From a virus (taxonomy: Duplodnaviria; Caudoviricetes), in IMG/VR virus record IMGVR_UViG_3300001528_000580, positions 64,001 to 128,000 of that record: DNA of 64,000 nucleotides; one strand, given 5' to 3'. The notes under the pieces were generated by a model that was given only the letters and a program-made list of their open reading frames with translations, did no database searches and had not been told where the DNA came from. This document shows positions 9,161 through 24,725 of this stretch, one piece after another; positions within the stretch are counted from its first letter, which is position 1; each line of letters starts with the position of its first letter. The position numbers and the translations under genes were made by a program.

Positions 9161-9162
9161 AA

Positions 9163-9181
9163 AATTTCTACTTATGTAGAT
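9163..9181 (+). CRISPR. solitary Cas12a-type repeat handle AATTTCTACTTATGTAGAT
   Basis: Matches the 19-nt type V-A crRNA handle AATTTCTACT-NNN-GTAGAT. Confidence 0.8.
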
Positions 9182-9322
9182 AAACTCACAGGAGAAATGG
9201 AAAATGAACATCGACTACGCCGCAAATACAAACATTCACCCTCCGTAACGTTTAATTAACCTTTTTTTAACTTAAATAATAATGATTAGATTTTTTTAGT
9301 TTTTCTTTTGATTGTTTCTTTT

Positions 9323-9341
9323 AATTTCTACTCGTGTAGAT
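9323..9341 (+). CRISPR. solitary Cas12a-type repeat handle AATTTCTACTCGTGTAGAT
   Basis: Type V-A handle, loop variant. Confidence 0.8.
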
Positions 9342-9419
9342 ACTAAGACAAAAAGTAATCAGGATAATCTTCCAAATGATGAAATTTTGTTAAATAAAAG
9401 TAAATAATCAGCCGTTGAT

Positions 9420-9495
9420 GCGTTCTTAACTCAGTCGGTAGAGTATCACCCTTTTAAGGTGAGAGTCATGGGTTCGAGTCCCATAGAACGTACCA
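9420..9495 (+). tRNA. tRNA-Lys(TTT)
   Basis: Full cloverleaf, CTTTTAA loop, encoded CCA. Confidence 0.95.
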
Positions 9496-9892
9496 TTTTC
9501 TCAAAATTAGGTTGTAGAGAAGAACCTAAAAAATATAACAAAAACTGCTCTTGTTAAAATCATTTGAGATTTCGATTGGCAAGATACAAAGCATTGGAGC
9601 AAAAAAACCATGCACTTTATTAGAGCCATGCCGTAAAATAATTTCTTCATTTGTAATTTTCGATTATGTAATCCTTTTGAATAGCCTGTTATGAAAATAG
9701 CAGGTTATTTTTTTGTTTTATCATTTTCTTTTCTATTTATTATCTATAATTATCGATAATAATATATTTCAATATTTGGTTGTAGATAAAAAAATGAAAA
9801 AAAGTTTTATTTTAACTTGTAATTTTCAAATAATGATGTATAGTATATTTAGAGAACAGAGAAAACCACACTTAATATAAAGGGAATAAAAC

Positions 9893-10087
9893 ATGTTGGC
9901 TTTTGAAAAAACTCTTATGACCGTTTATTTCTCGAATGAAAACAAAGAATTAGCACCCCTTTTTATTGATGGCAAAATTGAACAGCAAAGGGACGGTTCT
10001 TTTTATGTCATTGTGAACGGTGAGCTTGTTGCCAAGTATGGCAATTATAACGATGCTGTGCAATTCGTCAAAGAAAACTATAAATAA
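9893..10087 (+). CDS. hypothetical protein
   Basis: ORF with promoter and RBS. Confidence 0.7.
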   Translation: MLAFEKTLMTVYFSNENKELAPLFIDGKIEQQRDGSFYVIVNGELVAKYGNYNDAVQFVKENYK

Positions 10088-10096
10088 AGGTTTGAC

Positions 10097-10405
10097 ATGC
10101 TTTATCTTGAAAAAGTAAATGTTCAATATGGTGCTCCAATGGGGCGTAGAGAATGGAATGAATGTCCCGGAATAAAAGTCTGTGGCAGTATTCAAGAAAT
10201 AGCCATGAGAGAAGGCTATGATTCAGGCGGCGCATATTGGGGAACTCCTAATAATGTATATTGCGCACAATACAATCATTTTGATAAGAATACAAATAAA
10301 GAGTATTCCGGCAGAGTGTTTGTACGTGCCTTTTCTCGTGAAAGTGCAATAGAGCAGGTGAATAAGATTAGCGGTTGGGAAAATGTAAAATTCCGCAAAA
10401 AATAA
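10097..10405 (+). CDS. conserved phage protein
   Basis: YGAPMGR...GYDSGGAYWG motif. Confidence 0.75.
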   Translation: MLYLEKVNVQYGAPMGRREWNECPGIKVCGSIQEIAMREGYDSGGAYWGTPNNVYCAQYNHFDKNTNKEYSGRVFVRAFSRESAIEQVNKISGWENVKFRKK

Positions 10406-10604
10406 ATCAAATTTATACACCTTAAAAAAATGAATTTGATTCAAAGAGGGAAAGAGAAATTCCCTCCTTTATTTTTTTATTTATTTGGATTCTAAACAAT
10501 ATTATTATCGATAATGATAATAAAAATAAATCGAATTTATTTTAGAATCAGACTTGAAAATGAAACGAAATAGTGTATAGTATATATAAACGGAGAACAA
10601 TTAT

Positions 10605-10787
10605 ATGCTTATTGCTTTATACATCATTGCATCATTAGCAATCATTTATTTATTGATTGCAGTATTGTTTTATGTGATTGCATGTAAAATCATGTGTCCC
10701 AAAAGCAAATGGCAATATATCGATTTAATGGTATTGGCTATTAACTGGTTTCCTGTATCACTTGTATTTATGTTTTTCACAGATTAA
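10605..10787 (+). CDS. small membrane protein
   Basis: Hydrophobic ORF, GGAG RBS. Confidence 0.7.
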   Translation: MLIALYIIASLAIIYLLIAVLFYVIACKIMCPKSKWQYIDLMVLAINWFPVSLVFMFFTD

Positions 10788-10890
10788 ATTTCAAATTTTT
10801 TCATTTTATCACTTGACTTTTTGCGAGTTGAATATATATTAATAACATAGCAAGATAAAACCTTTCAACCACAACATAAAGGGAAAAATC

Positions 10891-11247
10891 ATGGAAATCA
10901 AAACTCGTTACGAAATTCAGGATGACGAAAAGAACCTGAATAACATTGAACGGCAGAAAGAACAAACCAAAGAAGCTGGTCGGCAAGTTGCCGAATTGAT
11001 TATGCAGTTTATCAACGGTGGTTTTACTGCTGACTTCTTTGAAGGTTTCTTTGACATTATTCTGAATAGCCATCGAACATTGCAACAGGTATTTCAGAAA
11101 TACCTTATTCTTAAATGGATAAGAATGCAAGCACTCAAAACCGAAGGTTTTTTCGATGAGCGTAACAAGTATACGGTCGAACAATGTAAAATCATGGATA
11201 AAGCATTGCGTGACAATGAAAAACACTATAATCCACCGTTCATTTAA
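10891..11247 (+). CDS. hypothetical protein
   Basis: HRTLQQ motif, promoter and RBS. Confidence 0.75.
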   Translation: MEIKTRYEIQDDEKNLNNIERQKEQTKEAGRQVAELIMQFINGGFTADFFEGFFDIILNSHRTLQQVFQKYLILKWIRMQALKTEGFFDERNKYTVEQCKIMDKALRDNEKHYNPPFI

Positions 11248-11465
11248 TCGAAATATTAAAGGCTGATTGATTCAGCCTTTTTTGTTGTTTTAATATTATT
11301 GATATATTATCTATAATTATCGATAATAATATTTGAATTAATTTCATGTAATAAAAAAGTTTGAGTTAATTTCATTTTGTAGCTTGCAATTATATGTTTT
11401 TGGTGTATAGTAATATTAGAAACAAAAAAGCAATAGCTGTTACCACAATATAAAGGGATTAAATT

Positions 11466-11756
11466 ATGAGCCAATACACCCGTCTTGCATGTTCTGACGA
11501 GCAGGAAAGAGCTATTGCAACTATTGAAAAATGGTTGAAGAAGCTGAATAAAAATATTTGTGGTTCTACCAAAATTGGCAAGTATTACGATACTGTGATT
11601 TTGGATTTGGAATTTCATGGGAACAACATTTATGTTCATTCAAATGGATTTGAAGATACTGACTTTGGTAATGAAGGAGTAACAGTAAATAATGTCCATA
11701 TTGAAAATGAAGGACAGTTTGAAAAGTTCAAGGATGCTGTTATGAAAGATGAATAA
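11466..11756 (+). CDS. hypothetical protein
   Basis: ORF with promoter and RBS. Confidence 0.75.
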   Translation: MSQYTRLACSDEQERAIATIEKWLKKLNKNICGSTKIGKYYDTVILDLEFHGNNIYVHSNGFEDTDFGNEGVTVNNVHIENEGQFEKFKDAVMKDE

Positions 11757-12004
11757 TGAGCAGAACGTTTCGCAAAAGTGATATTTTCGAGTTTACGGAA
11801 GAAAGGCACAATAGGAGTGCCAAAGTTGACAAAAAACACTTGAGAATGAAAGTCCCTGATGGGAAGGTTCAAAGTCCTGTGTTTGATGCCTTTACAAATG
11901 ATGGTGATGGTTTTCTTGGTTATGGCGAAGAATTTTGTCACAAGAAGTTGTATAAGAAACTTCGTAACAAGAAAAAACGTCATCAAAAAGTTGATGAAGA
12001 ATAA
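11756..12004 (+). CDS. basic protein MSRTFRKS...
   Basis: Translationally coupled ORF. Confidence 0.7.
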   Translation: MSRTFRKSDIFEFTEERHNRSAKVDKKHLRMKVPDGKVQSPVFDAFTNDGDGFLGYGEEFCHKKLYKKLRNKKKRHQKVDEE

Positions 12005-12310
12005 AAAATATGATGCAGTAATTTAATTACTGCATTTTTTGTTTTTATATATTTGAAGATAATTTATGTATTATTATCGATAATAATATAGTTGTTGTTT
12101 TTATCAACAGAAAAAAGTAACATATTTTTTATTTTTCGACTTGAAAATATGATAATATGGTGTATAGTAATAAATAGAAAGAAGAAAGAGAGTTATGGAT
12201 AATATAATTGTTGTAGAAAAAATACTTGTTGTTTTATTTATAATTGCATTAGTTATATACGCTCATGTAGGATTATTCATTAGAACTAAATAAAAAAAGG
12301 GAAAGAAAAA

Positions 12311-12493
12311 ATGAAAATTATTATTCCGATTGTCATGTTTGTGTTTGTGTTTTTCGCTTTTATTGCCATTGCTCAATGGCTGTGGAGCATCTTTTGTCCT
12401 GTATTTGGTTTGCAGGAAATGACTTTTTGGCAGATGACAGCTTTCCTTGTGTTTGTCTCTGCTTTCCTTGCGCCTTGTTGGGTTAAACGGTGA
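12311..12493 (+). CDS. membrane protein (paralog of 16718)
   Basis: AQWLWSIFC...WQM motif. Confidence 0.7.
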   Translation: MKIIIPIVMFVFVFFAFIAIAQWLWSIFCPVFGLQEMTFWQMTAFLVFVSAFLAPCWVKR

Positions 12494-12545
12494 AATATTC
12501 CTGATAGTAAAATAGTTGAACAACCGAAAAGTAAAGGGTAACACA

Positions 12546-12821
12546 ATGGAAACCAAGAAACCGACAAGGGAAGAAGTTAAGAAAAAAACTTTGTCCGAAG
12601 AATTTGCAAATTTTTTCGGAAACCTTTACTTTCGATGGCTCGATGAGAAAGATTATGAGGACATCGAAGAATACAAAAAAGTCATTGAAAGAGAACTCGG
12701 TTACTCAATTAAGAGAATCAAAAAACGTCCTTTCAGTATCGAAATTGAAACAAGTGACAATTTCCTTATGACACTCAAAGCCAATTCCAGTGGTATTGAG
12801 TTGTTTCGACAGGCAATCTAA
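12546..12821 (+). CDS. hypothetical protein
   Basis: ORF, LYFRWLDEKDYED motif. Confidence 0.75.
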   Translation: METKKPTREEVKKKTLSEEFANFFGNLYFRWLDEKDYEDIEEYKKVIERELGYSIKRIKKRPFSIEIETSDNFLMTLKANSSGIELFRQAI

Positions 12822-13018
12822 TATCAATTTATGGTGGTGAAATATCCACCATTTTTGTTTTGCTAATTGAGTAACATTATTTTATATTATTATCGATAAT
12901 AATAAATTTATATATTCATTGCTAGATAAAATTTTGAATTTTTATTTTATTTTAACTTGACTTTTTCAAAAACTATGATATGTTATAAGTAGTAAAACAA
13001 CCATAGGGAGTATTAGAA

Positions 13019-13582
13019 ATGGATACGGCATATGTTTCACTTGAAGAAGCAAAAAGGCTTTCTTTTCAGTATGTCAAAGAAGCATACGATTATTTTGTAG
13101 AACATATTGAAGAAACACCGTTTCGGTATGAAAAACACCGTATTAAACTTATGCCTTTTATCATTTGGAAGAAAAAGGGATTCAAACTTGCAGGAACAGC
13201 TCATGGTGGTTCTCTGAATACTATTGAAATGAATATCAATTTCTTGTATTCACCGGACGCAATGAGATTTATCAAAAACACAAGTGTTCATGAATTAGCA
13301 CATCTTATCAATGGTTGGTTTCATGGACGTAACCATGACAAACAATGGAAATATATTGCTAAATTCATTGGTGACGATGGTGAACGTTGCCATGATTATA
13401 AGCTGCCGGAGATTGCAAGTAATAATCACAAGTATACAGCTTATTGTGCTTGTCGTGAATGGAAGTTTACAAAGTATCGTTATGACAAGTGCGCTGACGG
13501 AGGCTATCGTTGTAGGAAGTGTGGTGAACTGTTATCAACAAAACCATATCAAATATTGACAATTCACGTTAAAGCACAATAA
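13019..13582 (+). CDS. SprT-like zinc metalloprotease
   Basis: HELAH, HDKQWK, C-terminal CxC...CxxC ribbon. Confidence 0.85.
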   Translation: MDTAYVSLEEAKRLSFQYVKEAYDYFVEHIEETPFRYEKHRIKLMPFIIWKKKGFKLAGTAHGGSLNTIEMNINFLYSPDAMRFIKNTSVHELAHLINGWFHGRNHDKQWKYIAKFIGDDGERCHDYKLPEIASNNHKYTAYCACREWKFTKYRYDKCADGGYRCRKCGELLSTKPYQILTIHVKAQ

Positions 13583-13721
13583 ACAATATAATGGAGCTAT
13601 ACAAATGGCTCCATTATTCTTTTTAGAATATTGTTGTTTTTAGATATACTATTATCGATAATAATATATAAATGATTATTTTGATGTGATAAAAAAATTC
13701 TGATTTTTTTTGAAACGTTAC

Positions 13722-14051
13722 TTGAAATTTAGTTGTTTGAGTGTATAGTATATATTGTAACAAGAAAACGTTACAAGTTGATTGAAAATGAGGTTAAATA
13801 AAAAACTGATTTTCTTTGAAATAAGACTTGAAAAACTTAAAAATGGTGATACATTATAAGTAACAAGCAAAAAGCTGTTAAGTTGATAAAAAAAAGAAAA
13901 ATCAAAAAAAGTTAAAAATAAGACTTGAAAAAATCAAAATCGATGATATAGTATATAGTATCAAAGAAAAAGAAAACAAGTCAAGTTTATAACAAAAAAA
14001 ATTAAAAAAGTTTACAATGCCACTTGAAAAATTAAAAAATGGTGGTATAGT
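13722..14051 (+). promoter_or_regulatory. four tandem sigma70-like promoters
   Basis: TTGAAA at 13722, 13828, 13926, 14024, each with a -10 TA(T/C)A(G/T)T. Confidence 0.75.
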
Positions 14052-14116
14052 AATAAAAGAAAAGAGAACTGAATGGTTCGGTTCTCAAAAACCTGAAATC
14101 ATGAAGGAGGTAAATC

Positions 14117-14638
14117 ATGATTCGTAAATTTGAAGTTGGAATGAAGCTGGAAATTCAGAACGGCGCTCAGCGGGTCAATGTCATCGTGACCGATGTTCCG
14201 GAAGATGCCAATGAAAAGCTGACGGTGGCATTCGAGAAGTCCGGCAAGGAACGCAAGATTTCTCGTGAAGCGCTGAAAACAGCCACTCGTGTGAAAGAAG
14301 TCAAGGAAAAGCGTCCGTCCGTGGTTTCGACGGCGATTCAGATTCTCGTGGACAAGAACGTCCCGATGACAATCAAGCAGATTACCGAGTGTCTGCCCGA
14401 ATATGGGTACACTCAGCCTCGTGAGGGAAAGACCCTTGCGAACAGTGTTTCGAGCCGGATGAACGGTGCCGCCAAAGAAGGCAAGTGCAAGAAGCTGGCG
14501 AACGGCGTATTCGCCGCAAACGAATGCACCGTGGAGTATGTGAAGCCCTTGACTGCCGCTTCCAAGAAGGCTCTTGAAGCCGAAGCCAAGAAAGAGGCGG
14601 TTGCGAAGGAACTGGCGGAGGCTCTTGCCGAAGCCTAA
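14117..14638 (+). CDS. winged-helix (HARE-HTH-like) protein, paralog 2
   Basis: PMTIKQI...GKTLANSVSSRM...KKLANGVF; GC-rich codons, GGAGG RBS. Confidence 0.7.
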   Translation: MIRKFEVGMKLEIQNGAQRVNVIVTDVPEDANEKLTVAFEKSGKERKISREALKTATRVKEVKEKRPSVVSTAIQILVDKNVPMTIKQITECLPEYGYTQPREGKTLANSVSSRMNGAAKEGKCKKLANGVFAANECTVEYVKPLTAASKKALEAEAKKEAVAKELAEALAEA

Positions 14639-14863
14639 GAGGTGACAATGGGGGAGAAATCCCCCTTGTTCTAAAAAAATTAAACACTATCAGAAAAAAA
14701 CTGATAGTGTTTTTTATTACATATTTTTTTGAAACTATTGTTTATTATTATCGATAATAATATAATTGTGTGTTACTTATGCAGATAAAAAATTCAATTT
14801 TTCTTTTGTTTTAACTTGTAATTTTCTAAATGTGGTGTATAGTATATTAAAAGGAAGAAAAAT

Positions 14864-15256
14864 ATGAAACTTATAATTAAAGATTCTGCAAACTCGTTTA
14901 TAATCAGTGATTCAATGCACTATCATAAGGTATTGCAGGAACGTGAAAGATTAGGTTTTCGTAATGTTGGAATTGATAAAGTTCCAACTCATGATGAAAT
15001 AAAAAATCTTCCTATATTTGCAGGTGGAAAGTTTGTTTATAAAACAGAACCTAAAGTTATATGGGAAGTCGAAGAAATAACAATAGAATGGTTGGATGGA
15101 TATTATTTTAATGCTTTCTGTTCAAATGGGAAAGAATATAGGTGTATACCATTCTATAACCGTAATTGCATCAATCCCCATATTATAAGGGATATTGACA
15201 ATTTCAAAAACAAAACAACCATAAGGAATAGGAAGAATGAAAAAAGCGATTTATAA
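14864..15256 (+). CDS. hypothetical protein (paralog of 56308-56718)
   Basis: Shared ERExxG and DGYY motifs. Confidence 0.75.
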   Translation: MKLIIKDSANSFIISDSMHYHKVLQERERLGFRNVGIDKVPTHDEIKNLPIFAGGKFVYKTEPKVIWEVEEITIEWLDGYYFNAFCSNGKEYRCIPFYNRNCINPHIIRDIDNFKNKTTIRNRKNEKSDL

Positions 15257-15683
15257 TCGGCAGGGAAATCAGATTGTTGAAACTGGTCATAAAACTTTTG
15301 ACCGTCAAACAAATGCTATTTCACATGGCAATGTTATAGCCAATACCATGTTCGGCTCATATATTCGCTCTTATACTGAAACTGAGTGTAATGGTTTTGA
15401 TTTTCCTGTTGGACATTTGTTTAATGTTGATATGAAGCCATTTATTGAACGGATGGGATTACGCAATCAGCGTATTATTGAATATATCAAAGAAGAAACA
15501 GAAGCACGGCAAAAGTCCGTTATTCTGTATTGCTTTTTCCATTGGAGAAATGGGGAACGTATCGTTCATGGATACATTTTGACTGACTGGGATTATAATC
15601 ATATTCAAACATTTTATGGAGAAAGATATAGCAGTAAATCCATTTCAGTTCTTGAAGAATGCAAACAGTATGTTTGTAATTGA
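15237..15683 (+). CDS. hypothetical protein
   Basis: ORF, RBS. Confidence 0.75.
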   Translation: MKKAIYNRQGNQIVETGHKTFDRQTNAISHGNVIANTMFGSYIRSYTETECNGFDFPVGHLFNVDMKPFIERMGLRNQRIIEYIKEETEARQKSVILYCFFHWRNGERIVHGYILTDWDYNHIQTFYGERYSSKSISVLEECKQYVCN

Positions 15684-15877
15684 AACTGATTCAAAATTCA
15701 GGAGTATAAAAAGCTCCTGTTTTTTATTTTAATTTTGAATCCGATTTATTATCTATTGTTATCGATAATAATATATCTTAATTTATTAAAGCAAAAATAA
15801 TTATGATATATTAATAAAATTGATTGATTTTTCTATTAACGATTGTATATTAGCTATAACCAAATAGGAGAATAAAA

Positions 15878-16147
15878 ATGAATAGAAATGAATCAAATTC
15901 AAAAAACATTGATTCCATTGAAGAACATACTCGGAAAACAGAAAGAAAGATTATTATAATATGGAGTATTACATTAATTATAATAATATTATCAATTATA
16001 AATGTGTTCTATCCATTTATTTCTGATTATATTGATTCATATTTTATAAATGGAAATGGAGAAATAGATTATAATAAAAAAACGTATAGCCTTGTTTCGT
16101 TTATGATATGGTATGTTCCATTTTGTTTCATGATTTTCAAAAAATAA
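15878..16147 (+). CDS. membrane protein
   Basis: TM segments, AGGAG RBS. Confidence 0.65.
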   Translation: MNRNESNSKNIDSIEEHTRKTERKIIIIWSITLIIIILSIINVFYPFISDYIDSYFINGNGEIDYNKKTYSLVSFMIWYVPFCFMIFKK

Positions 16148-16234
16148 ATAATAATATTTTTTCTATATAATAACTTGCATTTCATTAAAATTGGTGTATA
16201 GTATATATACAATCAATATGGAAGGGAGTTAAAA

Positions 16235-16639
16235 ATGGCAAATGTTTGTGAAACAATTATCATTGCTGAATTTGATTCAGAGAAAGCAAAAAATGAATTA
16301 TTTTTGAAACTCCAAAACACCATAAAGAAAAATGATGACGGAATAGATTATTTCACTCTTGGAAGTGAAAAGTGTTTTTTGTTTGATGGAGCTATTGAAG
16401 ATACTGAACAGTCACCAAAGAAATTGGAAATGGTTTTTTCTTCAAAGTGGACAGGTTGTGAATCCATTGAAGTATTCAAAGAAATTATCGAATATTTGAA
16501 AGTAGATGGATTGAAAAAATTTGCTTTATATGATTATGAACCTTTAGAAAATTTCAAATACCATTATACCTATCATAATGGAAAATTTTATGAAGGAAAA
16601 GGAAATGCTCATGCAGGGAAATATATGGGAATTGAATAA
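16235..16639 (+). CDS. YubB/DUF1281-like ferredoxin-fold protein
   Basis: MANxC N-terminus, FxSKW and YEP motifs. Confidence 0.55.
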   Translation: MANVCETIIIAEFDSEKAKNELFLKLQNTIKKNDDGIDYFTLGSEKCFLFDGAIEDTEQSPKKLEMVFSSKWTGCESIEVFKEIIEYLKVDGLKKFALYDYEPLENFKYHYTYHNGKFYEGKGNAHAGKYMGIE

Positions 16640-16717
16640 AAATTAAAAAATAGATTTGACTTTTCATAATATGCTCTTATATTATATGTAATATATAATA
16701 TAGGAGTATAATGTTAT

Positions 16718-16930
16718 ATGAATAAAATTGTTTATATTATAGGTGGAATTGTTGGATTTATTATTGGATATAGTGCTGTAATGTTATTACTAACATTTTT
16801 AGCACAATGGTTATGGAGTATCTTTTGCGTTTGTATAAATTGCAGTCCCATGTCCTATTGGCAAATGTTTAGTTTTATTATCTTCTTATCAATGTTTATT
16901 GTACCTCGTTATGTAAATACAGGAAAATAA
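16718..16930 (+). CDS. membrane protein (paralog of 12311)
   Basis: AQWLWSIFC...WQM motif. Confidence 0.7.
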   Translation: MNKIVYIIGGIVGFIIGYSAVMLLLTFLAQWLWSIFCVCINCSPMSYWQMFSFIIFLSMFIVPRYVNTGK

Positions 16931-17017
16931 CGTTTTTTTCTATATAACAACTTGCATTTTATAAAAACTAGTGTATAGTATATGTAGAAACAAAAAACAA
17001 AATAAGAGGTCAAAATT

Positions 17018-17203
17018 ATGTGCGCTGGTGCTTGCAAATGTAAAGAACGTAAAGAAATTGCAAAGAAAGCTGCAAATGCAAAACTTGACGAAGCAAGGGA
17101 GCTTGCAAGGCAGTTGATGGACGAGGGAAATGAAGGTGTTACAAAACTCGACAAAATCATGACTTTGATTGATACAGCCAAAAATCATATTCACAACATT
17201 TAA
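17018..17203 (+). CDS. hypothetical protein
   Basis: ORF with promoter and RBS. Confidence 0.7.
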   Translation: MCAGACKCKERKEIAKKAANAKLDEARELARQLMDEGNEGVTKLDKIMTLIDTAKNHIHNI

Positions 17204-17225
17204 CCAAAATAATAAGGTAAAAATT

Positions 17226-17438
17226 ATGGCGAAGATTGTTGTTGTAGTTCATGGTGGATTGGTGGAAAGTGTTTACACTGATGACGGAAACGCCGAAGTA
17301 AAGTTGATTGATTACGATATTCTCAAGGATGACATGGGAAAATCGTATCAGGAAATTACTGAAATTACCAAAAAAAATGTTGGCGACCTGAAAAATAATC
17401 CTATCGGATATGTTTCCGATATTGAGGAAGTTGAATAA
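17226..17438 (+). CDS. hypothetical protein
   Basis: IVVVVHGGLVESVY motif. Confidence 0.75.
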   Translation: MAKIVVVVHGGLVESVYTDDGNAEVKLIDYDILKDDMGKSYQEITEITKKNVGDLKNNPIGYVSDIEEVE

Positions 17439-17698
17439 AAATTAGAATATAACAACCTACAATGCGATTACCCATAGAGATATGCGGTATGTGGAACAGA
17501 GTAGGTTGTTTTTTTATATATTTAATGTCGAATATTCATATATTATTATCGATAATAATATACATTATTTTGTTTGTTAAAATGTTACCATCAAAAAATA
17601 TTATATTTTTTCATAAATCAACTTGAAAAATTGCGTTAAAGGTGTATAGTATATATAGAATGAAAGAGAAACACCAAAACAACCACAAGGTGAATATA

Positions 17699-18433
17699 AT
17701 GGAGATTAGCAATCTGACGATTGAACTTACTCGTAAATGCAACATGAAATGCAAACATTGCTTGCGTGGTACTCCTCAATGTGTTTCTTTGAGAAGAGAA
17801 GCATTGAAAAATATTTTCAAAAATGTTGAATATATTGGAGCATTACAATTTACAGGCGGTGAGCCGTTGCTTGCATTGTATCAAATGCGGCAAATTGTCG
17901 ATTACTTGAAATGGGCTAATATTGAAATTGGCTATTTTTGGATTAAAACCAATGGAACTATCTTTTCAAAAGCATTCTTGAAATATTTGCAGGAATTGCA
18001 GAATATTACAAATGAACCTGACATGTGTTGTATGGAATTTTCGCTTGATCAATATCATAATAGCAAATATAAAAATGTTATTTATGAATATCAAAATTAT
18101 GAATATGAATACACTTTCATTAAAGCAAGTGACAATTTGCATAGTAAATACAATAAAATTTATACTATTATTAAAGAAGGTAGAGCTAAACGGTTAAGGA
18201 AATACGAGGTTTACAATTTTGATAAACCGAGCTTTTATGATGGTTGGAATGCTGATGATTATGATACCGATAATATGATATATGTTTCAGCAAATGGTAA
18301 TGTAATGACAGATTGCAATTTGTCATTCAATAGCATTGACAAGTATTCTTTCGGAAATATTTACAAAGAAACACTTGAAAGTATTGTTGACAGGAACACC
18401 AAAGAAGAAATTAAAAAAATTTATGCAAAATGA
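17699..18433 (+). CDS. radical SAM protein with C-terminal SPASM/twitch-like remnant
   Basis: CNMKCKHC, TGGEP, TNG, YVSANGNV..C, GNIYKETLESI. Confidence 0.9.
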   Translation: MEISNLTIELTRKCNMKCKHCLRGTPQCVSLRREALKNIFKNVEYIGALQFTGGEPLLALYQMRQIVDYLKWANIEIGYFWIKTNGTIFSKAFLKYLQELQNITNEPDMCCMEFSLDQYHNSKYKNVIYEYQNYEYEYTFIKASDNLHSKYNKIYTIIKEGRAKRLRKYEVYNFDKPSFYDGWNADDYDTDNMIYVSANGNVMTDCNLSFNSIDKYSFGNIYKETLESIVDRNTKEEIKKIYAK

Positions 18434-18501
18434 CAAATAACAACTTGAAATTCTCGCTTTTTGTGTTATATTAACAATAACAACCAAAGGGAGGTTTGAG
18501 A

Positions 18502-18690
18502 ATGGGAATGATTAAAGTCCGTGCATCAAAAATTAAATGGAATGTCGATGACAAATCAGAACTTGAATATTTGCCAACTGAATGTATTCTTGAAGTTGAA
18601 ATCGATGAACTGGATGAAGTCATCAGTGACAAATTAAGTGAAGAATATGGCTTCTGCCATGAGGGATTTGAATATGAGATTATAAAATAA
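18502..18690 (+). CDS. small acidic protein
   Basis: ISDKLSEEYGFCH motif, GGAGG RBS. Confidence 0.75.
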   Translation: MGMIKVRASKIKWNVDDKSELEYLPTECILEVEIDELDEVISDKLSEEYGFCHEGFEYEIIK

Positions 18691-18919
18691 ACACAACACA
18701 AGAGAGTAACTATATAGTTACTCTCTTTTTTATTTTGTTGTTTGATAAAAACTATTATATTATTATCGATAATAATATAAATACTATTGTTATATATGTA
18801 TAACAAATAAAAAATATACTATTTTTTTTAGTTTTTACTTGAATTTTTCTAAATATGGTGTATAGTAAACACATAGCAAAAAATAACCTAAAACCACAAC
18901 TATAAGAAAAGGTGAAAAA

Positions 18920-19339
18920 ATGAATAATCAAGTATTGGAAGTCCTTTCTCTGATTGAAAACAAAAAATCGGATATTATTACATGTATTGATGAACTGAAA
19001 AGTTTTGAAATTATTAGCATTGAAACCTTACAAAAAGCACATGATAGAAGAAAATATTATAAAACATTAAAGTATTTTGGCGTTTTGAATTATTTGATGT
19101 ATCAAAAATTTTTTGACTTTTGGCACAAAAAATGTGACAAATGTAATATTGAACATAGTTTTAATAAACGTTATCAAATGATTCATGCTGTATTAAGTTT
19201 GTTAAAAAAAGAAAATAAAAAAATGACCTTTAAGGAATTGTCGGAAATTTGTGAATGTCAAATTATAGATATTAAAAATTTTCTTGACAGTCAATATAAT
19301 TGTGGAAAGTTTGAAAACAATATTATTGATGGAAAATAA
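18920..19339 (+). CDS. hypothetical protein, possible C-terminal HTH
   Basis: MTFKELSEIC. Confidence 0.65.
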   Translation: MNNQVLEVLSLIENKKSDIITCIDELKSFEIISIETLQKAHDRRKYYKTLKYFGVLNYLMYQKFFDFWHKKCDKCNIEHSFNKRYQMIHAVLSLLKKENKKMTFKELSEICECQIIDIKNFLDSQYNCGKFENNIIDGK

Positions 19340-19588
19340 GAATAGTAAAAATGCAAGGAATTTATCTTTGCATTTTTGTTTTAACATTTTATGATTATAA
19401 ATTAATATTATTATCGATAATAATATAATATGATATAATCACTTTCCAAAAATGATTGTGATACTAAACAAAAAAATATTGACTTTTTTCATTTTAACAC
19501 TTGAAAAATCATTGTTTGGATGTATATTTATATTAGAAAAGAGAAACAAGGGGTTTCTCTAAAACGACAAACCATAGTGGAGGTAATT

Positions 19589-20053
19589 ATGGAAAAGTCA
19601 CAAGTCAGAGTCGGTTGGAAGTATCGCAAAGTTTGTGGTGCTGTCGCATCGGAAATTTCAATCGTTGAAAAACTGGAAGACGGAACTTTTACCTGCTCTT
19701 ACAAGAGCGGAAAAACGTTCAAGGCAAGCCGTGAAACGATTTGCTCATGGGAACGCATCGTCAAGGCAAAGCCGGAACACAAGAAGCGCATCAATCAGCC
19801 TGTTTTGGTTGACGCTTGCAAAACGGCGTTGAACGCTGAAAAGCGTTGGTTGACACCTACGGAGCTTGTCAAGCAGTTGGTCGAAAAGGGGCTTTACAAA
19901 TTCACGGAGAAAGCCAAAACGCCCCATTGCACTGTCAGCAGTCGGTTGAATACTTATTTGCGTGAAGGCGGCAAAGGTATTCAGAAGTTCGGGCGTGGAC
20001 ATTTCGCCGCCGAAGGTGTTGAACCTCCGGTTGCAACTCCTGCCGAAGCATAA
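19589..20053 (+). CDS. winged-helix (HARE-HTH-like) protein, paralog 3
   Basis: LTPTELV...AKTPHCTVSSRL...KFGRGHF; GC-rich codons. Confidence 0.75.
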   Translation: MEKSQVRVGWKYRKVCGAVASEISIVEKLEDGTFTCSYKSGKTFKASRETICSWERIVKAKPEHKKRINQPVLVDACKTALNAEKRWLTPTELVKQLVEKGLYKFTEKAKTPHCTVSSRLNTYLREGGKGIQKFGRGHFAAEGVEPPVATPAEA

Positions 20054-20229
20054 GGAATAAAAGCAAGGGGAAAATTCCCCTTGCTTTTTTGTTTCCAACT
20101 TTTACCATCATAATCTTATATTATTATCGATAATAATATATTTTTGATCGATGGTCTTTTTTTGTCTACAGATCTCGTACTATAGATCTGCGGACATCTT
20201 TTTATATCATTATCGATAATAATATATTA

Positions 20230-20471
20230 ATGTTTGATGGTAGATAATAATAGTTATTAGATTGTGGTAAAGATAATAATAATTATCAGATTCAGGTAAA
20301 GATATTTCAGTTGAAATGATTATGGTAAAGATTAATCTATTGTTCAGATGAAGAAGGAGATGTTTGATTCATCTTGATGGAGATATTGATTAATTCATTG
20401 ATCAGATTATGATAAAGATTAAAATCTATTATAGATTATGATATAGATTAAAAAATAATCTTGATAAAGAT
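20230..20471 (+). repeat. degenerate 29-bp-period tandem repeat (xGAT-N8-xGAT core), iteron-like
   Basis: Units at 20230, 20259, 20288, 20317, 20346, 20375, 20404, 20433. Confidence 0.7.
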
Positions 20472-20479
20472 TTATATTG

Positions 20480-21037
20480 TTACCATAACAAAGATAAAAG
20501 AATTGACTTAATCAAACTTGGTTTATAAGTAAGATTATAAATATCATTTTCAAGTTTCCATCTTCTGATATTTTTATAACCAGTTTTTGCATATAATGGA
20601 ATATGAATTTTTGATTTATAATGTTCACTTACAAGATTCATAATATGGAATGCAGGACTAAATTCAAAATCTTCAACAGAAACTTTTCTGATTTTAAATT
20701 TTGAAAATCCAATGTTGAAAGTTTTATCAAGTGAAAAATTCTTTACTTCAACTTCTTCACTACAGATTTGATTATAACCACTTCTCAAATCAACCATTTC
20801 AATATTGCAAGTAACAAATGATTTGAGATCTTTGTCAACAACCAAATTAAATGTTGCGACATATTTTGCATTCAAGAACAAAGAATTATATTCAACAACA
20901 AAACTGTCAACAATTGAATCTTTAAAATATTCAAGATTAATTGTTTTTTCATCATCAATATTTACTTGTTCTTTATTTTCCAGAATTTCCTTCCAGAAAT
21001 TGTAACGAAAGATTGTCATATTATAAATGTGCTTCAT
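20480..21037 (-). CDS. hypothetical protein
   Basis: ORF, AGGAG RBS. Confidence 0.7.
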   Translation of the reverse strand: MKHIYNMTIFRYNFWKEILENKEQVNIDDEKTINLEYFKDSIVDSFVVEYNSLFLNAKYVATFNLVVDKDLKSFVTCNIEMVDLRSGYNQICSEEVEVKNFSLDKTFNIGFSKFKIRKVSVEDFEFSPAFHIMNLVSEHYKSKIHIPLYAKTGYKNIRRWKLENDIYNLTYKPSLIKSILLSLLW

Positions 21038-21050
21038 AAATTTCTCCTAT

Positions 21051-21506
21051 TTAAACAAGTTGATCTAATACTGCAAAAAGTACTAAATTATCTACTTTTG
21101 GAAATCTTTCTTTCAAAAGTTCGCAACAATCATAATAGGAAATTTCATGAGCTTGATATTGCGAATAAAATCTTTTACTTTTATCATAAATGCAAGAATA
21201 CAACATAATATTTCTTTCTTGAAGTTCAGTAATTACCATTTGGTAAAACATTTTCCTTGCAATATCATAGCAAAAATTATCTATTGTTTGTGTATTACAA
21301 TCCAATACTTTTGACATTTGATTTTTATATTCTTCTGAAATTTTTTCTTTTAACTCAAGAAGAACTGTAAATTCTTTTTCATGTTGTTCAAAACAATCAA
21401 AGGAATGAATTGCTACTGTACTTTTTTTAGAAAGAGTAGTTTCATATCTTGTATTAAAGATATCTGTATCATTATTCAAGACATCAGCAATGGTGTTGAA
21501 ACTCAT
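21051..21506 (-). CDS. hypothetical protein
   Basis: ORF, RBS and - strand promoter. Confidence 0.7.
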   Translation of the reverse strand: MSFNTIADVLNNDTDIFNTRYETTLSKKSTVAIHSFDCFEQHEKEFTVLLELKEKISEEYKNQMSKVLDCNTQTIDNFCYDIARKMFYQMVITELQERNIMLYSCIYDKSKRFYSQYQAHEISYYDCCELLKERFPKVDNLVLFAVLDQLV

Positions 21507-21976
21507 TTAAAACATTCCTTGTTCTTTAAGGTTGATATTATTATGTTCATGTTTTCCAATATAGCATATTTTTTTGAAATGTCAATATATCATTTTAAAA
21601 TCTATTAAGTTTTTTTGTTATTCATTTAAAGCGATTATAAGGCTCACATAGTTTGTGTGCATATATACACTGGTATTTTTAAATAACATGGCTGTATTTT
21701 CACGGAAATGCCTTTATTTCCTTTCCTATAATATAAAGAACGATTGTGTTTTATGTTTATGGATGACATGAAATAAATTTATCTGATAGTAGATGAATCA
21801 TTTTTAAATCTATAGCAAGAATGAATCGGATTCATTCTACAGGTCAAAATTTGAATTCGTTTCAATCTCAAGGGTCAAAATGAATCAGATTCATTTATAG
21901 AAAAAATAGGTGGAATGTATTTGATTTTTTCTATAAACATGTTATGTTATATAAAAACTATAAGGATATAAGAAAA

Positions 21977-22327
21977 ATGAAAGCTCCATATTATTCATGT
22001 GCATGTGGAAATTGTGATTTTTATAATTTTGCATTAAAAAAATGTATGAAACATGACTTTGATATTAATCCTTGTTATAATTGTTGTCCAGATTTTCAAA
22101 GACTCCGTGTTAAAGTAGGAGATAAAATCAAATTTGAATGGATGGGAGATATTGTAGAACAAACTGTTGTGAAAATTCATCCTTTTTTGGATTCAGAACG
22201 TTACGAAGTTGAATTTCCTGTCAAAAATGTAGCTCATCATAAAGTTTCTCCTGCTTCTATTATTATTGATCCTAATGATAACAGAAGATATACTAATGTC
22301 ACAGTTATTTGGACAGAAAAATCATAA
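21977..22327 (+). CDS. Cys-rich hypothetical protein
   Basis: CGNC...C...CC motif. Confidence 0.7.
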   Translation: MKAPYYSCACGNCDFYNFALKKCMKHDFDINPCYNCCPDFQRLRVKVGDKIKFEWMGDIVEQTVVKIHPFLDSERYEVEFPVKNVAHHKVSPASIIIDPNDNRRYTNVTVIWTEKS

Positions 22328-22498
22328 ATTTTTTTCAAAATTGAACTTGAAAAACCAAAATCATGTGTTATATTAAGTTTTGTTGACAGAGAAAAGCAGT
22401 TGTGAAAACAATACATATCAAAGTCAATAAAAAAAATGAAAAAAAGTTCTGAATTGAACTTGAAAAAAACAAAACTCGATGTATATTGAGTAATGTGA

Positions 22499-22525
22499 CA
22501 GGGAAAACCTGATGCTGATTGAAAA
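22499..22525 (+). promoter_or_regulatory. boxB-like hairpin plus boxA-like antitermination leader (duplicated at 24461-24486)
   Basis: CAGG-GAAA(A)-CCTG then TGCTGATTGAAAA directly after promoters. Confidence 0.55.
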
Positions 22526-22531
22526 AAATTA

Positions 22532-22778
22532 AACTTATGAGCGGTAGGCTTAGAAGTAGCCATCCGATAATGAGTGAAAGGAACCACCAATTAGTGCAAA
22601 ATGTCAAGAAATATCTAATGGTTCAATTATAAACGACTTAGAATCGATAAACTTGATTCAAGGTATATGTTGATGATGTGCATTTGGTAAAATGGGAATA
22701 AGCATGGTTAATGACCATCACCCAGATTAGATAATACTATGGGGTCGCTTTCTTTGGTGTAATAACACATCATAAGTT
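22532..22778 (+). ncRNA. 23S rRNA H43/H44 (GAC, uL11-site) mimic RNA, copy 1
   Basis: GGTAGGCTTAGAAGTAGCCATCC...GAGT-[insert]-GTGTAATAACACA, closed by aacttatga/tcataagtt. Confidence 0.8.
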
Positions 22779-22800
22779 CTTTTTTATAAATGCTGTTTGA

Positions 22801-22819
22801 AATTTCTACTTATGTAGAT
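22801..22819 (+). CRISPR. solitary Cas12a-type repeat handle
   Basis: AATTTCTACTTATGTAGAT. Confidence 0.8.
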
Positions 22820-22931
22820 AAAATTATTAGAATGTCAAAACTTTTAATTTGTGAAATTTTGTGAGTTGGACTATTATTGTTATAACTCAATAATGAAAAT
22901 AGTAACAAATGAACCGACAAGTTGAATATAA

Positions 22932-23016
22932 CATGTCGATGAAAGTATCTTGCGAGTGTGGTTTGGTGACACCTTCTGCGAGTATTTCGTGGAGATAGAG
23001 GTTCGATTCCTACATG
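22932..23016 (+). ncRNA. tRNA-like element (T-arm plus long irregular stem)
   Basis: AGG-TTCGATT-CCT T-loop, catgt/acatg closing stem. Confidence 0.4.
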
Positions 23017-23143
23017 AAAAATCGAAAGTATTGTGATAGCAATTATAATTTGCTAATGTCTTCGGACGATCATTAAGTTGAGGCGCATAAATACTTAATG
23101 ATGATAATGTCACTATCACGGCATTCTTTTTTTAGATTTAAAT

Positions 23144-23219
23144 GGACCGTTAGCTCAGTGGTTAGAGCAGGAAACTCATAATTTCTTGGTCGGGGGTTCA
23201 AGTCCCTCACGGTCCACCA
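23144..23219 (+). tRNA. tRNA-CAT (probably Ile2; elongator Met possible)
   Basis: Cloverleaf, CTCATAA loop, G1-C72, CCA. Confidence 0.93.
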
Positions 23220-23487
23220 TTTAAAATTCCCATCTACTCGATGTAAAGAGTCGGCAAAACATCTAACGCCGTTAAATTGATGTGTTTTCCTCAAGGCTAA
23301 CGAGGTTTTTTACCAACAGTTTTTAAAATTAAAACGGTTGGCTCTGATGAGATGGGTTATAAACCTAATTGGTGAGTAACCGAAACATAAAGGTACAGTC
23401 TTTACCTTTAGTGATGGTAAAACATAGACACAATTTTGACGTTAATCATGTTAGCGTTGCTCCATGCTATTAGCTAGTCATGAGTTA

Positions 23488-23549
23488 TGGATGCTGTTGG
23501 TTAGTAGGAGCGCAATTAGCTCTGACGGGGTTCAACTCCCTGCAATCCA
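23488..23549 (+). ncRNA. tRNA-like mini RNA lacking a D-stem
   Basis: tggat/atcca, gagc/gctc hairpin, GACGGGGTTCAACTCCCTG T-arm. Confidence 0.4.
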
Positions 23550-23609
23550 GTTTCTTCAAGTGGTTGCAAACTCTTGAAGATGCTCTTGAGCATTGAGCAA
23601 AAGCGAAAG

Positions 23610-23646
23610 CAACATAGATGACAGCTTGGAAAGACAAGCGATTATG
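23610..23646 (+). ncRNA. possible C4-antisense-like hairpin
   Basis: TGACAGCTTGGAAAGACAAGC resembles the GACAGCnnGGAAAGACnnGC motif (recalled, not searched). Confidence 0.35.
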
Positions 23647-23652
23647 ATTTTT

Positions 23653-23711
23653 AGTCAGAGGGCATTGGTCAAGACCAATCGATTACGTGGTGTAGTGAAG
23701 CATATCTGACT
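23653..23711 (+). ncRNA. permuted tRNA-like element (T-arm, mini acceptor loop, D-arm)
   Basis: agtcaga/tctgact closes attgg-tcaaga-ccaat, cg-atta-cg, TG-GTGT-AGTGAA-GCAT. Confidence 0.5.
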
Positions 23712-23844
23712 TTTGTTTTCCAAATTTTTCTCTCTTTTTGGTTGGCTAGTAGATAAATATTTATCTACTAGCTTTTTTATTTTCAAACTATTGAATTTAT
23801 TGTATATTGTGTTATATTATATTAAATTCATACAAGGAAAAATA

Positions 23845-24393
23845 ATGCGTAGAAAAGAAATACATAAACCAGATCATCCAAATGCATATAAAAATGGTAA
23901 TATTTTAGAATATGTTTATATTGCATCAAAAAAATTAAATAGACCATTATTGAAAGGTGAGATTGTTCATCATATAGATGAAAATCCATTTAATAATGAT
24001 GAAGATAACCTAATGGTATTTGCTACAAAATCAGATCATAATAAATTTCATGCAAATGGACTTGATTTTAACATAGTTGAAAAATTAAGTAATGGTTCTT
24101 ATAAAATAAAAGATGATGTTATGCTAATAAGTAGCAAAGAATTTATTTGTGAATATTGTCATAAGAGATTTATTGCAGAAAAAATAAATCATAAGAAAAA
24201 TAAAATATATTGTTCAATTGAATGTTCAAATAAAGATAAAGAAAAGTTCGATATTCCAATTGAACAATTAAAAGAACTAGTTAAAACATATAATTTAACC
24301 AAAATAGGAAAAATGTTTGGTGTTTCTGACAATGCAATCAGGAAAAGATGTATTAAAAATAACATCGATTTTAAAAATAAGAAAAAATCATAA
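23845..24393 (+). CDS. HNH homing-type endonuclease with Zn finger and C-terminal HTH
   Basis: VHHIDENPFNN..NL..H, CEYC/CSIEC, GVSDNAIRK. Confidence 0.85.
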   Translation: MRRKEIHKPDHPNAYKNGNILEYVYIASKKLNRPLLKGEIVHHIDENPFNNDEDNLMVFATKSDHNKFHANGLDFNIVEKLSNGSYKIKDDVMLISSKEFICEYCHKRFIAEKINHKKNKIYCSIECSNKDKEKFDIPIEQLKELVKTYNLTKIGKMFGVSDNAIRKRCIKNNIDFKNKKKS

Positions 24394-24491
24394 AAAAATT
24401 CAATTTTTTTATTTTGGGAGCTTGAAAAAAACAATATTTGGTGTATATTAAGTATTGTAACAGGGAAACCTGATGCTATTTGAAAAATTAT

Positions 24492-24569
24492 AGAGGTGCT
24501 TGGAAAAACTTTCAACGAGTAGACTTTTAATCTAAATACGTGCAAACAGGTTTTTTCGCTTATTCCTCT
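24492..24569 (+). ncRNA. scaffold RNA displaying a tRNA-Lys(UUU)-like anticodon arm
   Basis: agagg/cctct scaffold shared with 26105-26244; taga-CTTTTAA-tcta. Confidence 0.6.
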
Positions 24570-24657
24570 TTTTTTCAAATATTTTTAAAAATAATACTTG
24601 AAAAAATCAATATTAGGTGTATATTAAGTATTGTAATAGGGAGACATGATATTTGAA

Positions 24658-24725
24658 AATTTCTACTTATGTAGATAAACAAGGAAAACTTGAGGTTGAT
24701 TAAAAAAATTTCTACTTATGTAGAT
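24658..24725 (+). CRISPR. Cas12a-type mini-array: handle, 30 nt, handle
   Basis: AATTTCTACTTATGTAGAT at 24658-24676 and 24707-24725, just after a promoter. Confidence 0.8.

What the first reader, a model, noticed from the sequence alone, without database searches (positions are those of the whole stretch)
9163..24725. Five orphan Cas12a (type V-A) crRNA handles with no cas genes, most followed by a base-paired 'spacer'
Seen: AATTTCTACT(TAT/CGT)GTAGAT occurs at 9163, 9323, 22801, 24658 and 24707. All are on the transcribed strand of ncRNA islands, and only the 19-nt mature handle is conserved, not a 36-nt repeat. 24658/24707 form a handle-30 nt-handle unit directly after a promoter. The sequence after a handle usually starts a helix: 9182 aaac..ggag with ctcc..gttt 9241-9253; 9342 actaa..taatc with upstream gatta..ttagt; 22821 aaattat with ataattt at about 23045; 24726 aaacattagaaa with tttctaatgttt 24975-24986. 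Established: Cas12a binds and cuts just 5' of this hairpin, and solitary repeat units can act as RNA anti-CRISPRs (Racrs). Inference: these could be Racr decoys that load host Cas12a with non-targeting guides, mini-arrays aimed at competitors, or, more novel, host Cas12a co-opted as a processing nuclease that releases the downstream structured RNAs.
Basis: partly seen in the sequence, partly recalled or inferred. Interest (0 to 1): 0.86.

Follow-up and report, generated by a model that had tools for sequence, protein, structure and literature searches.

The report
Cas12a guide-handle decoys in a megaphage
A 441-kb gut phage carries five exact copies of the short hairpin that Cas12a proteins grip, set inside its non-coding RNA operons; they most likely act as RNA decoys against a host Cas12a, and the phage runs its own Cas12a with a slightly different hairpin.

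Summary
The five 19-nt Cas12a handles are real: exact, all on the + strand, none expected by chance, and the only ones of this type in the 440,868-bp phage genome. "No cas genes" holds only for the window. About 140 kb downstream the phage encodes a 1186-aa Cas12a followed by a 13-spacer array. That array uses a different handle, with the loop-proximal C:G pair replaced by A:U, and a 67%-identical relative keeps the same variant.

In ten related phage contigs the promoter-proximal handle is invariant, but the sequence after it differs (at least four versions). The same RNA modules occur with and without a handle. The 30-nt "spacer" between handles 4 and 5 is a copy of the phage's own promoter leader. 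No protospacers were found.

Other complete phages carry the same canonical orphan handles and have no cas12a.

Best reading (about 50%): handle-only RNA anti-CRISPR (Racr-like) decoys against a host Cas12a, built as modules into early non-coding operons. Use by the phage's own Cas12a, guide (Cracr) functions and RNA processing are not excluded. The host is unknown and no RNA data exist.

This is a new variant of a known kind. The scan noted a similar solitary Cas12a handle in another phage (e1-5495772).

The parts
9163..9181 (+). Orphan Cas12a handle 1 (TAT loop). It sits inside ncRNA island 1, about 320 nt after the promoter at 8819, and is followed by an RBS-like GGAG and a possible mini-ORF.
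9323..9341 (+). Orphan Cas12a handle 2 (CGT loop), 79 nt upstream of tRNA-Lys(UUU) at 9420-9495. The homologous place in relatives L054 and L064 has no handle.
22801..22819 (+). Orphan Cas12a handle 3 (TAT loop), directly after the linker TGCTGTTTGAAA. The block 22532-22819 (one RNA module plus this handle) is absent from relatives L054 and L057 and from a contig of run X1.
24658..24676 (+). Orphan Cas12a handle 4 (TAT loop), about 25 nt after the predicted start of the promoter at 24598-24625. It is invariant in all 10 related contigs, while the sequence after it differs.
24677..24706 (+). 30-nt inter-handle segment. It is not a foreign spacer but a copy of the phage's promoter leader (CAAGG-AAAA-CTTG hairpin plus an A-rich linker). 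The same leader precedes handle 4 in relatives and follows a promoter at genome 139.7 kb.
24707..24725 (+). Orphan Cas12a handle 5 (TAT loop), abutting a roughly 265-nt structured RNA.
24726..24990 (+). Structured RNA after handle 5. Its first 12 nt (24726-24737) pair with 24975-24986 and a U-run follows. It is present only in the window, L061 and L062.
24598..24625 (+). Sigma-70-type promoter (TTGAAA-16-TATATT) driving handles 4 and 5. Like promoters lie at 8819-8846, 22460-22487 and 24422-24449.
23744..23773 (+). Intrinsic terminator closing the island that holds handle 3 and tRNA-Met (23144-23219). The matching terminator of island 1 is at 9679-9710.

Best explanation
The five units are handle-only mimics of a canonical type V-A crRNA. 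They are transcribed early from host-type promoters as parts of long non-coding (tRNA/ncRNA) operons. Their most likely job is to be bound, and cut just 5' of AAUU, by the host cell's Cas12a, filling it with useless RNAs so that it cannot load phage-targeting crRNAs. That is Racr-like RNA anti-CRISPR decoys, present in several copies.

The phage's own Cas12a is a separate system. Its array uses a handle whose loop-proximal C:G pair is A:U, which may keep the two RNA pools apart.

Shown:
- the handles, their constraint pattern and their placement;
- the separate phage cas12a and array with a variant handle;
- the turnover of what follows the handles;
- canonical orphan handles in phages without cas12a.

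Inferred:
- transcription of the units;
- binding by a host Cas12a;
- inhibition of interference;
- insulation between the two handle types.
For: 1. Constraint pattern of a Cas12a ligand. The AATT motif, both stem arms and the final T are invariant in all 5 copies and in the 16 copies on related contigs. Only the loop varies (TAT, CGT, TTT, AATT). This matches the published finding that Cas12a stems are nearly identical between orthologs while the loop is solvent-exposed and free to vary (PMC11031708), and that the AAUU motif plus stem are needed for maturation (PMC6507119).

2. The orphans are C:G type in every copy. The phage's own array is A:U type in every intact repeat. The arrays beside the 99%- and 67%-identical Cas12a relatives also start as A:U type. 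One sample (SRR24039121) holds both types.

3. Complete or near-complete phages of 640, 224, 58, 58 and 46 kb carry 1-3 canonical orphan handles and have no cas12a. There the handles can only work with a host Cas12a.

4. In 9 aligned relatives the promoter and handle 4 are invariant, but the sequence diverges at once after GTAGAT into at least four unrelated versions. What follows the handle is therefore not what is kept.

5. The downstream sequences are phage-native. GC is 0.275 against 0.251 for the genome and 0.376 for the array spacers. The inter-handle 30-mer is a promoter leader. No protospacers were found.

6. V-A solitary repeats have been shown experimentally to inhibit Cas12a (RacrVA1-3, PMC10651486).

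7. Real V-A arrays with exactly this TAT-loop handle exist in gut and digester Clostridia, Succinivibrio and others. The phage is found in animal-gut samples.
Against: - The host is unknown, so it is not shown that it has a V-A system or this repeat.
- None of the bacterial arrays fetched targets this phage.
- There are no RNA data, so transcription and 5' ends are inferred.
- Only handle 4 is promoter-proximal. The other four lie deep inside long transcripts.
- Published Racr screens required at least 90% of the full repeat, whereas only 19-20 nt are conserved here.
- Cas12a orthologs generally accept each other's handles. The phage's own Cas12a, which keeps the RNase triad, might therefore bind these units too. 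In that case they are not host-specific decoys.
- Copy number varies from 0-1 to 5 between relatives over the same region, so no single copy is essential.
Confidence: 0.5

Rival explanations
1. The units serve the phage's own Cas12a. They would be extra loading or processing sites that cut the long ncRNA/tRNA transcripts at module borders, or that load the phage enzyme with non-array RNAs for regulation.
For: - The phage encodes a full Cas12a with RuvC motifs and the conserved RNase triad (As H800, K809 and K860 equivalents).
- Orthologs are tolerant of foreign handles.
- Handles sit exactly at module borders after the recurrent linker.
- In L059 a handle abuts the 5' end of a scaffold RNA.
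Against: - None of the 21 orphan copies has the A:U variant that this Cas12a lineage keeps across 67% protein identity.
- The same canonical orphans occur in phages with no cas12a.
- The same RNA modules occur without handles in close relatives, so maturation does not need them.
- After cleavage the handle stays on the downstream RNA and Cas12a stays bound, so the RNA is not released free (established Cas12a biochemistry).
Confidence: 0.2
2. Some units are true guide RNAs that reprogram a host Cas12a. Either they are Cracr-like repressors of the host cas12a promoter, or mini-array crRNAs against competing elements.
For: - The architecture psi-repeat (20 nt conserved) plus psi-spacer is that of V-A CreR/Cracr RNAs (bioRxiv 10.1101/2024.10.29.618823).
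- Handle 4 plus 30 nt plus handle 5 would give a normal-sized crRNA.
- Three of the five guides start with AAAC.
Against: - The guide after handle 4 changes completely between strains that are about 94% identical.
- The 30-mer is the phage's own leader.
- No PAM-flanked seed match of 10 nt or more beyond chance was found in the phage or in candidate-host loci.
- No hits were found in viral, phage or plasmid collections.
- No terminator follows the psi-spacers.
- The guide of unit 5 is sequestered in a 12-bp helix.
Confidence: 0.12
3. The host Cas12a is exploited as an RNA-handling factor. Cleavage and tight binding at the handle would give downstream phage RNAs (ncRNAs, tRNA precursors, some mRNAs) a defined, protected 5' end.
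For: - Handles lie just upstream of tRNAs and structured RNAs.
- In relatives and other phages they lie just upstream of ribosome-binding sites: L054:6079, and the 224-kb and 58-kb phages.
Against: - Handle presence is not tied to any cargo.
- There is no evidence on RNA ends or stability.
- The benefit would exist only in Cas12a-positive hosts.
Confidence: 0.1
4. The units are non-functional leftovers of CRISPR repeats that spread by recombination.
For: - Breakpoints between strains coincide with handle edges.
- Decayed copies exist, for example L056 and L060 with AATTATATTTATGTAGAT.
Against: - Nineteen of 19 nt are exact in 4 of the 5 copies; the fifth differs only in the loop.
- Handle 4 is invariant in all relatives while its flanks diverge.
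- Variation is confined to the loop.
- All copies are on the transcribed strand.
Confidence: 0.05

Closest known systems
RNA anti-CRISPRs (Racr) / viral solitary repeat units, including RacrVA1-3 (Camara-Wilpert et al. 2023, PMC10651486)
   Same: Both are cas-unlinked repeat mimics in a phage, on the transcribed strand, with one directly behind a promoter. They keep the hairpin that the Cas protein binds. V-A examples were shown to inhibit Cas12a.
   Different: - Only the 19-20 nt mature handle is kept, not the 36-nt repeat.
- There are five copies, built as modules into polycistronic tRNA/ncRNA operons, not a stand-alone small RNA gene.
- The phage also has its own Cas12a and array with a variant handle.
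- No activity has been tested.
Cracr / CreR crRNA-like regulatory RNAs of type V-A (Liu et al., bioRxiv 10.1101/2024.10.29.618823)
   Same: Both have a psi-repeat in which only about 20 handle nucleotides are conserved, followed by a spacer-like segment. Both are Cas12a-processed and can be multiplexed.
   Different: - No partial PAM-adjacent match to any cas12a promoter was found.
- The guides are not conserved between strains.
- No terminator follows the guide.
Virus-borne CRISPR mini-arrays used in inter-virus conflict (Faure et al. 2019; Medvedeva et al. 2019; from my own knowledge)
   Same: Handles 4 and 5 form a repeat-30 nt-repeat unit behind a promoter.
   Different: The 30-mer is the phage's own promoter leader and has no foreign target.
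Canonical type V-A crRNA 5' handle and Cas12a self-processing (Zetsche 2015, Fonfara 2016; reviewed in PMC6507119)
   Same: AAUU, a 5-bp UCUAC/GUAGA stem, a 3-4 nt loop and a final U are identical to the consensus handle. Real arrays with the same TAT-loop handle exist.
   Different: The units are not in an array, have no 5' repeat half, and carry phage-native downstream sequence.
CRISPR-Cas loci of huge phages that lack adaptation genes (Al-Shayeb et al. 2020; from my own knowledge)
   Same: The phage's own locus is an effector plus array without cas1 or cas2.
   Different: The effector is a Cas12a with an unusual A:U handle variant, and it coexists with canonical-handle orphans elsewhere in the genome.

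Membership tests
Type V-A crRNA handle (Cas12a ligand) | AAUU motif, 5-bp UCUAC/GUAGA stem, 3-5 nt loop and a terminal U | tested here: met
   All five copies match exactly. The hairpin forms in the MFE fold of every context.
Type V-A CRISPR array | Full 36-nt repeats alternating with foreign-derived spacers, next to cas12a | tested here: not met
   Only 19-20 nt are shared. The units are dispersed and lie 140 kb from cas12a. The inter-handle 30-mer is a phage leader. The true array elsewhere has a different handle.
Racr / solitary repeat unit | Solitary repeat mimic on a mobile element, not linked to cas genes | tested here: met
   There are no cas genes within the window or within 140 kb. 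Caveat: it is handle-only, about 55% of a repeat, which is below SRUFinder's 90% rule.
Racr / solitary repeat unit | Expressed as RNA from a nearby promoter | tested here: inconclusive
   Consensus promoters lie upstream on the same strand. No RNA run holds the phage.
Racr / solitary repeat unit | Matches the repeat of the host's CRISPR-Cas subtype | not testable with these tools
   The host is unknown. The TAT-loop handle does occur in arrays of gut Clostridia and others.
Racr / solitary repeat unit | Binds the Cas protein and inhibits interference | not testable with these tools
   This needs biochemistry and infection assays.
Cracr / CreR (V-A) | Psi-spacer with at least 9 PAM-proximal nt matching the cas12a promoter or CreR target | tested here: inconclusive
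   There is no such match in the phage genome, including its own cas12a upstream region, or in the fetched candidate-host loci.
Cracr / CreR (V-A) | Rho-independent terminator after the psi-spacer | tested here: not met
   No terminator lies within about 100 nt after any handle. The transcripts run on into structured RNAs or tRNAs.

The most novel reading that the evidence does not exclude
The phage keeps two insulated Cas12a RNA pools. Canonical C:G-stem handles, multiplexed as modules of an early operon of mimic RNAs, jam the host's Cas12a. The phage's own Cas12a has co-evolved with an A:U-stem handle (and carries Arg at the PAM-sensing lysine), so it neither wastes itself on the decoys nor loads host crRNAs. 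If so, a single base pair would set self versus non-self for crRNA loading.
Probability: 0.25. Interest if true: 0.82.

Novelty: new variant of a known kind. Interest (0 to 1): 0.6.

Why it matters
RNA anti-CRISPRs are a recent discovery, and few type V-A examples have been studied.

Three features here are unusual:
- The mimic is stripped to the 19-nt handle.
- It is multiplied and wired into long non-coding operons next to tRNA genes and further unidentified structured RNAs.
- It sits in a phage that also wields its own Cas12a with a compensatory handle change.

That combination raises a directly testable question: how does a phage that uses an RNA-guided nuclease avoid jamming it with its own RNA decoys?

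Handle-only units may fall below the repeat-coverage rule quoted for SRUFinder, so they may be under-counted. A naturally orthogonal Cas12a/handle pair would also be of practical use.

Tried and rejected
- Rfam: a gathering-threshold scan of the whole window and E-value scans of 8300-9900 and 22200-26600 found only tRNAs and one weak YrlA-like hit. No known family covers the handle contexts.
- RNA evidence: no RNA holder was listed for the phage. Laying contigs of four DNA runs gave only strain variation.
- Self-targets: blastn-short of the five downstream 30-mers and the 13 array spacers against the phage gave only chance-level 12-16-mers. The one exception is the leader copy at 139.7 kb.
- PAM-plus-seed scans of the phage and of 24 bacterial loci holding the TAT handle gave nothing beyond chance.
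- Exact searches of guides 1, 2 and 5 and of two array spacers in IMG/VR gave 0 hits.
- GenBank phages and PLSDB plasmids gave only E >= 0.09.
- Host finding: spacers of the fetched TAT-loop arrays do not hit the phage.
- The A:U/TTG handle was searched in IMG/VR and in JGI metagenomes. Only single chance matches turned up, mostly inside unrelated sequence, with no arrays and no Cas12a.
- Close relatives of the phage Cas12a in IMG/VR: none by peptide patterns.
- AcrVA5 idea for the GNAT upstream of cas12a: the PDB sequence search returned only generic GNATs and no AcrVA5. Pfam gives a generic GNAT.
- The helices claimed after handles 1 and 3 are not better than shuffles.
- No close relatives exist in GenBank phages.


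Full report
**Observation.** The pattern AATTTCTACTNNNGTAGAT occurs five times in the window, at 9163, 9323, 22801, 24658 and 24707. All are on the + strand, with no further sites even at two mismatches and none expected by chance. The window is bases 64,001-128,000 of a 440,868-bp virus record with direct terminal repeats, rated complete, with 25% GC. A relaxed scan of the whole genome finds no other handle of this type. Outside the 19-20 nt the five copies share only an A-rich run upstream. So the core observation stands.

**Setting.** All five lie in ORF-poor stretches that also hold tRNA-Lys (9420-9495) and tRNA-Met (23144-23219). They sit between strong sigma-70-type promoters (TTGAAA-16-TATATT at 8819, 22460, 24422 and 24598) and intrinsic terminators (9679-9710 and 23744-23773). 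Rfam recognises nothing there except tRNAs and a weak Y-RNA-like hit. A linker, TG(C/T/A)T(G/A)(A/T)TTGAAAA, precedes each RNA module, and three of these linkers run straight into a handle. The handle hairpin forms in the minimum-energy fold of every context.

**'No cas genes' is wrong for the genome.** A search with the Cas12a family model finds one 1186-aa open frame at genome 227,292-230,852, scoring 709 bits. It matches solved Cas12a structures along its whole length. It keeps the three pre-crRNA RNase residues, the equivalents of AsCas12a H800, K809 and K860. It has Arg where AsCas12a has the PAM-sensing K607. Directly downstream lies a regular array of 36-nt repeats and 13 spacers of 26-29 nt. 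There is no cas1 or cas2.

**The array handle is a different variant.** The array handle is AATTTCTAATTTGTTAGAT. Relative to the orphans, the loop-proximal C:G pair is A:U, a compensatory double change, and the loop is TTG. Every intact array repeat has this variant and none of the orphans does. The arrays next to a 99%-identical and a 67%-identical relative of this Cas12a begin with the same TCTAAT variant. It is therefore a stable trait of this Cas12a lineage. Published work on 23 orthologs reports nearly identical stems and variable, solvent-exposed loops (PMC11031708), so an altered stem is unusual. Exact searches for the variant found no arrays elsewhere.

**Relatives.** I fetched 14 related contigs through the neighbouring HNH gene.
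- In all ten close relatives, which are about 94% identical in the flanks, the promoter and handle 4 are invariant. The sequence diverges immediately after GTAGAT into at least four unrelated continuations.
- The RNA that follows the handle in L054, L057, L058 and L063 is present in the window from about 25006 without a handle.
- A scaffold RNA that has a handle in L059 has a decayed one in L056 and L060, and none in the window at 24486.
- The module plus handle 3 (22532-22819) is missing from L054 and L057 and from a contig of run X1.
- The homologues of the handle 1 and handle 2 sites in L054 and L064 lack handles.
- The 30 nt between handles 4 and 5 is a copy of the promoter leader that precedes handle 4 in relatives and that follows another promoter at 139.7 kb.
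- In L059 the inter-handle segment is again leader-derived.

The 'handle-30 nt-handle' unit is therefore a tandem of leader-plus-handle modules, not an acquired spacer. Across the 21 copies seen, variation is confined to the loop (TAT, CGT, TTT, AATT).

**Guides.** The sequences after the handles have the phage's own composition, with GC 0.275 against 0.376 for the array spacers. They have no PAM-flanked targets beyond chance in the phage or in candidate-host loci, and no matches in viral, phage or plasmid collections. Of the claimed spacer helices, only the 12-bp pairing of 24726-24737 with 24975-24986 is solid. The unit 2 fold is modestly better than shuffles, and units 1 and 3 are not.

**Other phages.** The exact TAT-loop handle is found in genuine V-A arrays of Clostridia, Clostridiaceae, Succinivibrio, Patescibacteria and other MAGs. 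It also occurs as solitary units in twelve viral contigs. Five of these records were searched: 640 kb, 224 kb, two of 58 kb and 46 kb, all 91-100% complete. They hold 1-3 canonical handles each and no cas12a. One unit is a promoter-handle-33 nt-handle-RBS arrangement, and another lies just upstream of a tRNA-like sequence. In those phages the handles can only meet a host Cas12a.

**Interpretation.** The strict conservation of exactly the nucleotides that Cas12a reads, together with free loops and free downstream sequence, says the handle itself is the selected element and the guide is not. The consistent C:G versus A:U split says the orphans and the phage's own array answer to different constraints. 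The cas12a-less phages show that such orphans work with host enzymes. Solitary V-A repeats are proven inhibitors of Cas12a (PMC10651486).

I therefore favour handle-only Racr-like decoys against a host Cas12a, at about 0.5. They would be placed under host-type promoters in long, probably early, non-coding operons. The host-type promoters, Shine-Dalgarno sites and low GC suggest a Firmicutes host (inference), and the phage occurs in bovine, pig and other gut samples.

Not excluded:
- use by the phage's own Cas12a (0.2);
- Cracr-like or other guide functions (0.12; bioRxiv 10.1101/2024.10.29.618823);
- exploitation of host Cas12a to define or protect RNA 5' ends (0.1);
- no function (0.05).

The main gaps are the unknown host and the absence of any RNA data.

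**Comparison and novelty.** This belongs with viral solitary repeat units, Racr and Cracr elements, so the principle is known. Four things are new:
- the reduction to the bare handle;
- the multiplication and modular integration into tRNA/ncRNA operons;
- the rapid cassette exchange at the handle edge in natural strains;
- above all, the coexistence with a phage-encoded Cas12a that uses a compensatory handle variant.

Whether that single base pair insulates the two systems is a clean experiment. Earlier first-reader notes of this scan interpret neighbouring modules as mimic RNAs (tRNA anticodon arm, 23S GTPase centre) and describe a similar solitary Cas12a handle in another phage. I confirmed only the linker grammar and the Arg substitution, not those interpretations.

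Noticed in passing
genome 227,292-231,844 (L006:454-5006), outside the window: This is the phage-encoded Cas12a (1186 aa) plus a 13-spacer array, with no cas1 or cas2 in the genome. The handle has an A:U in place of the usual C:G stem pair. The AsCas12a K607 equivalent is Arg (as in the engineered RR PAM variant). A generic GNAT gene lies just upstream, with no detectable AcrVA5 similarity.
   Followed up: partly
window 24486-24570 and 26100-26250: These are scaffold RNAs of the form GAGGTG...TTCAACG-cargo-...TATTCCTC followed by a U-run. One cargo looks like a tRNA-Lys(UUU) anticodon arm, the other like a permuted tRNA. There is a weak Rfam YrlA (Y RNA-like) hit at 26113-26236 (30.6 bits, E 8.5e-4).
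   Followed up: no
window 22513, 22791, 24474, 24647, 25315, 26088: A recurrent linker, TG(C/T/A)T(G/A)(A/T)TTGAAAA, often after a CAGG-GAAA-CCTG hairpin, precedes each RNA module. Another reader called it boxA/boxB-like.
   Followed up: partly
L021 (Clostridia MAG contig JAUNSP010000106.1), around 1093-1111, minus strand: This is a solitary TAT-loop handle in a bacterial contig. The first 14 nt of its psi-spacer match the opposite strand about 35 nt upstream, next to a TTTG PAM. That is the layout of a CreR-type Cas12a autoregulator.
   Followed up: no
window 23845-24393, 26493-27467, 27542-28114: Three HNH (HNH_3) endonuclease genes are interspersed between the ncRNA/tRNA islands. They are likely homing endonucleases and may help the cassette turnover seen between strains.
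   Followed up: no
window 9204-9248: A possible mini-ORF lies after handle 1, with a GGAG ribosome-binding site and a peptide ending His-Pro-Pro-stop. Relatives L054 and L064 have a similar ending, but the evidence is weak because several frames look alike.
   Followed up: partly
genome 256,421-256,495, outside the window: A suppressor-type tRNA with anticodon CTA is one of 33 tRNA genes. It hints at TAG recoding in part of the genome.
   Followed up: no
L078 (224-kb phage, G002:205,725-205,793) and L076 (640-kb phage, G001:156,925): Other huge phages without cas12a carry canonical V-A handles. One has promoter-handle-33 nt-handle directly before a ribosome-binding site, and another has a handle just upstream of a tRNA-like sequence.
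   Followed up: partly
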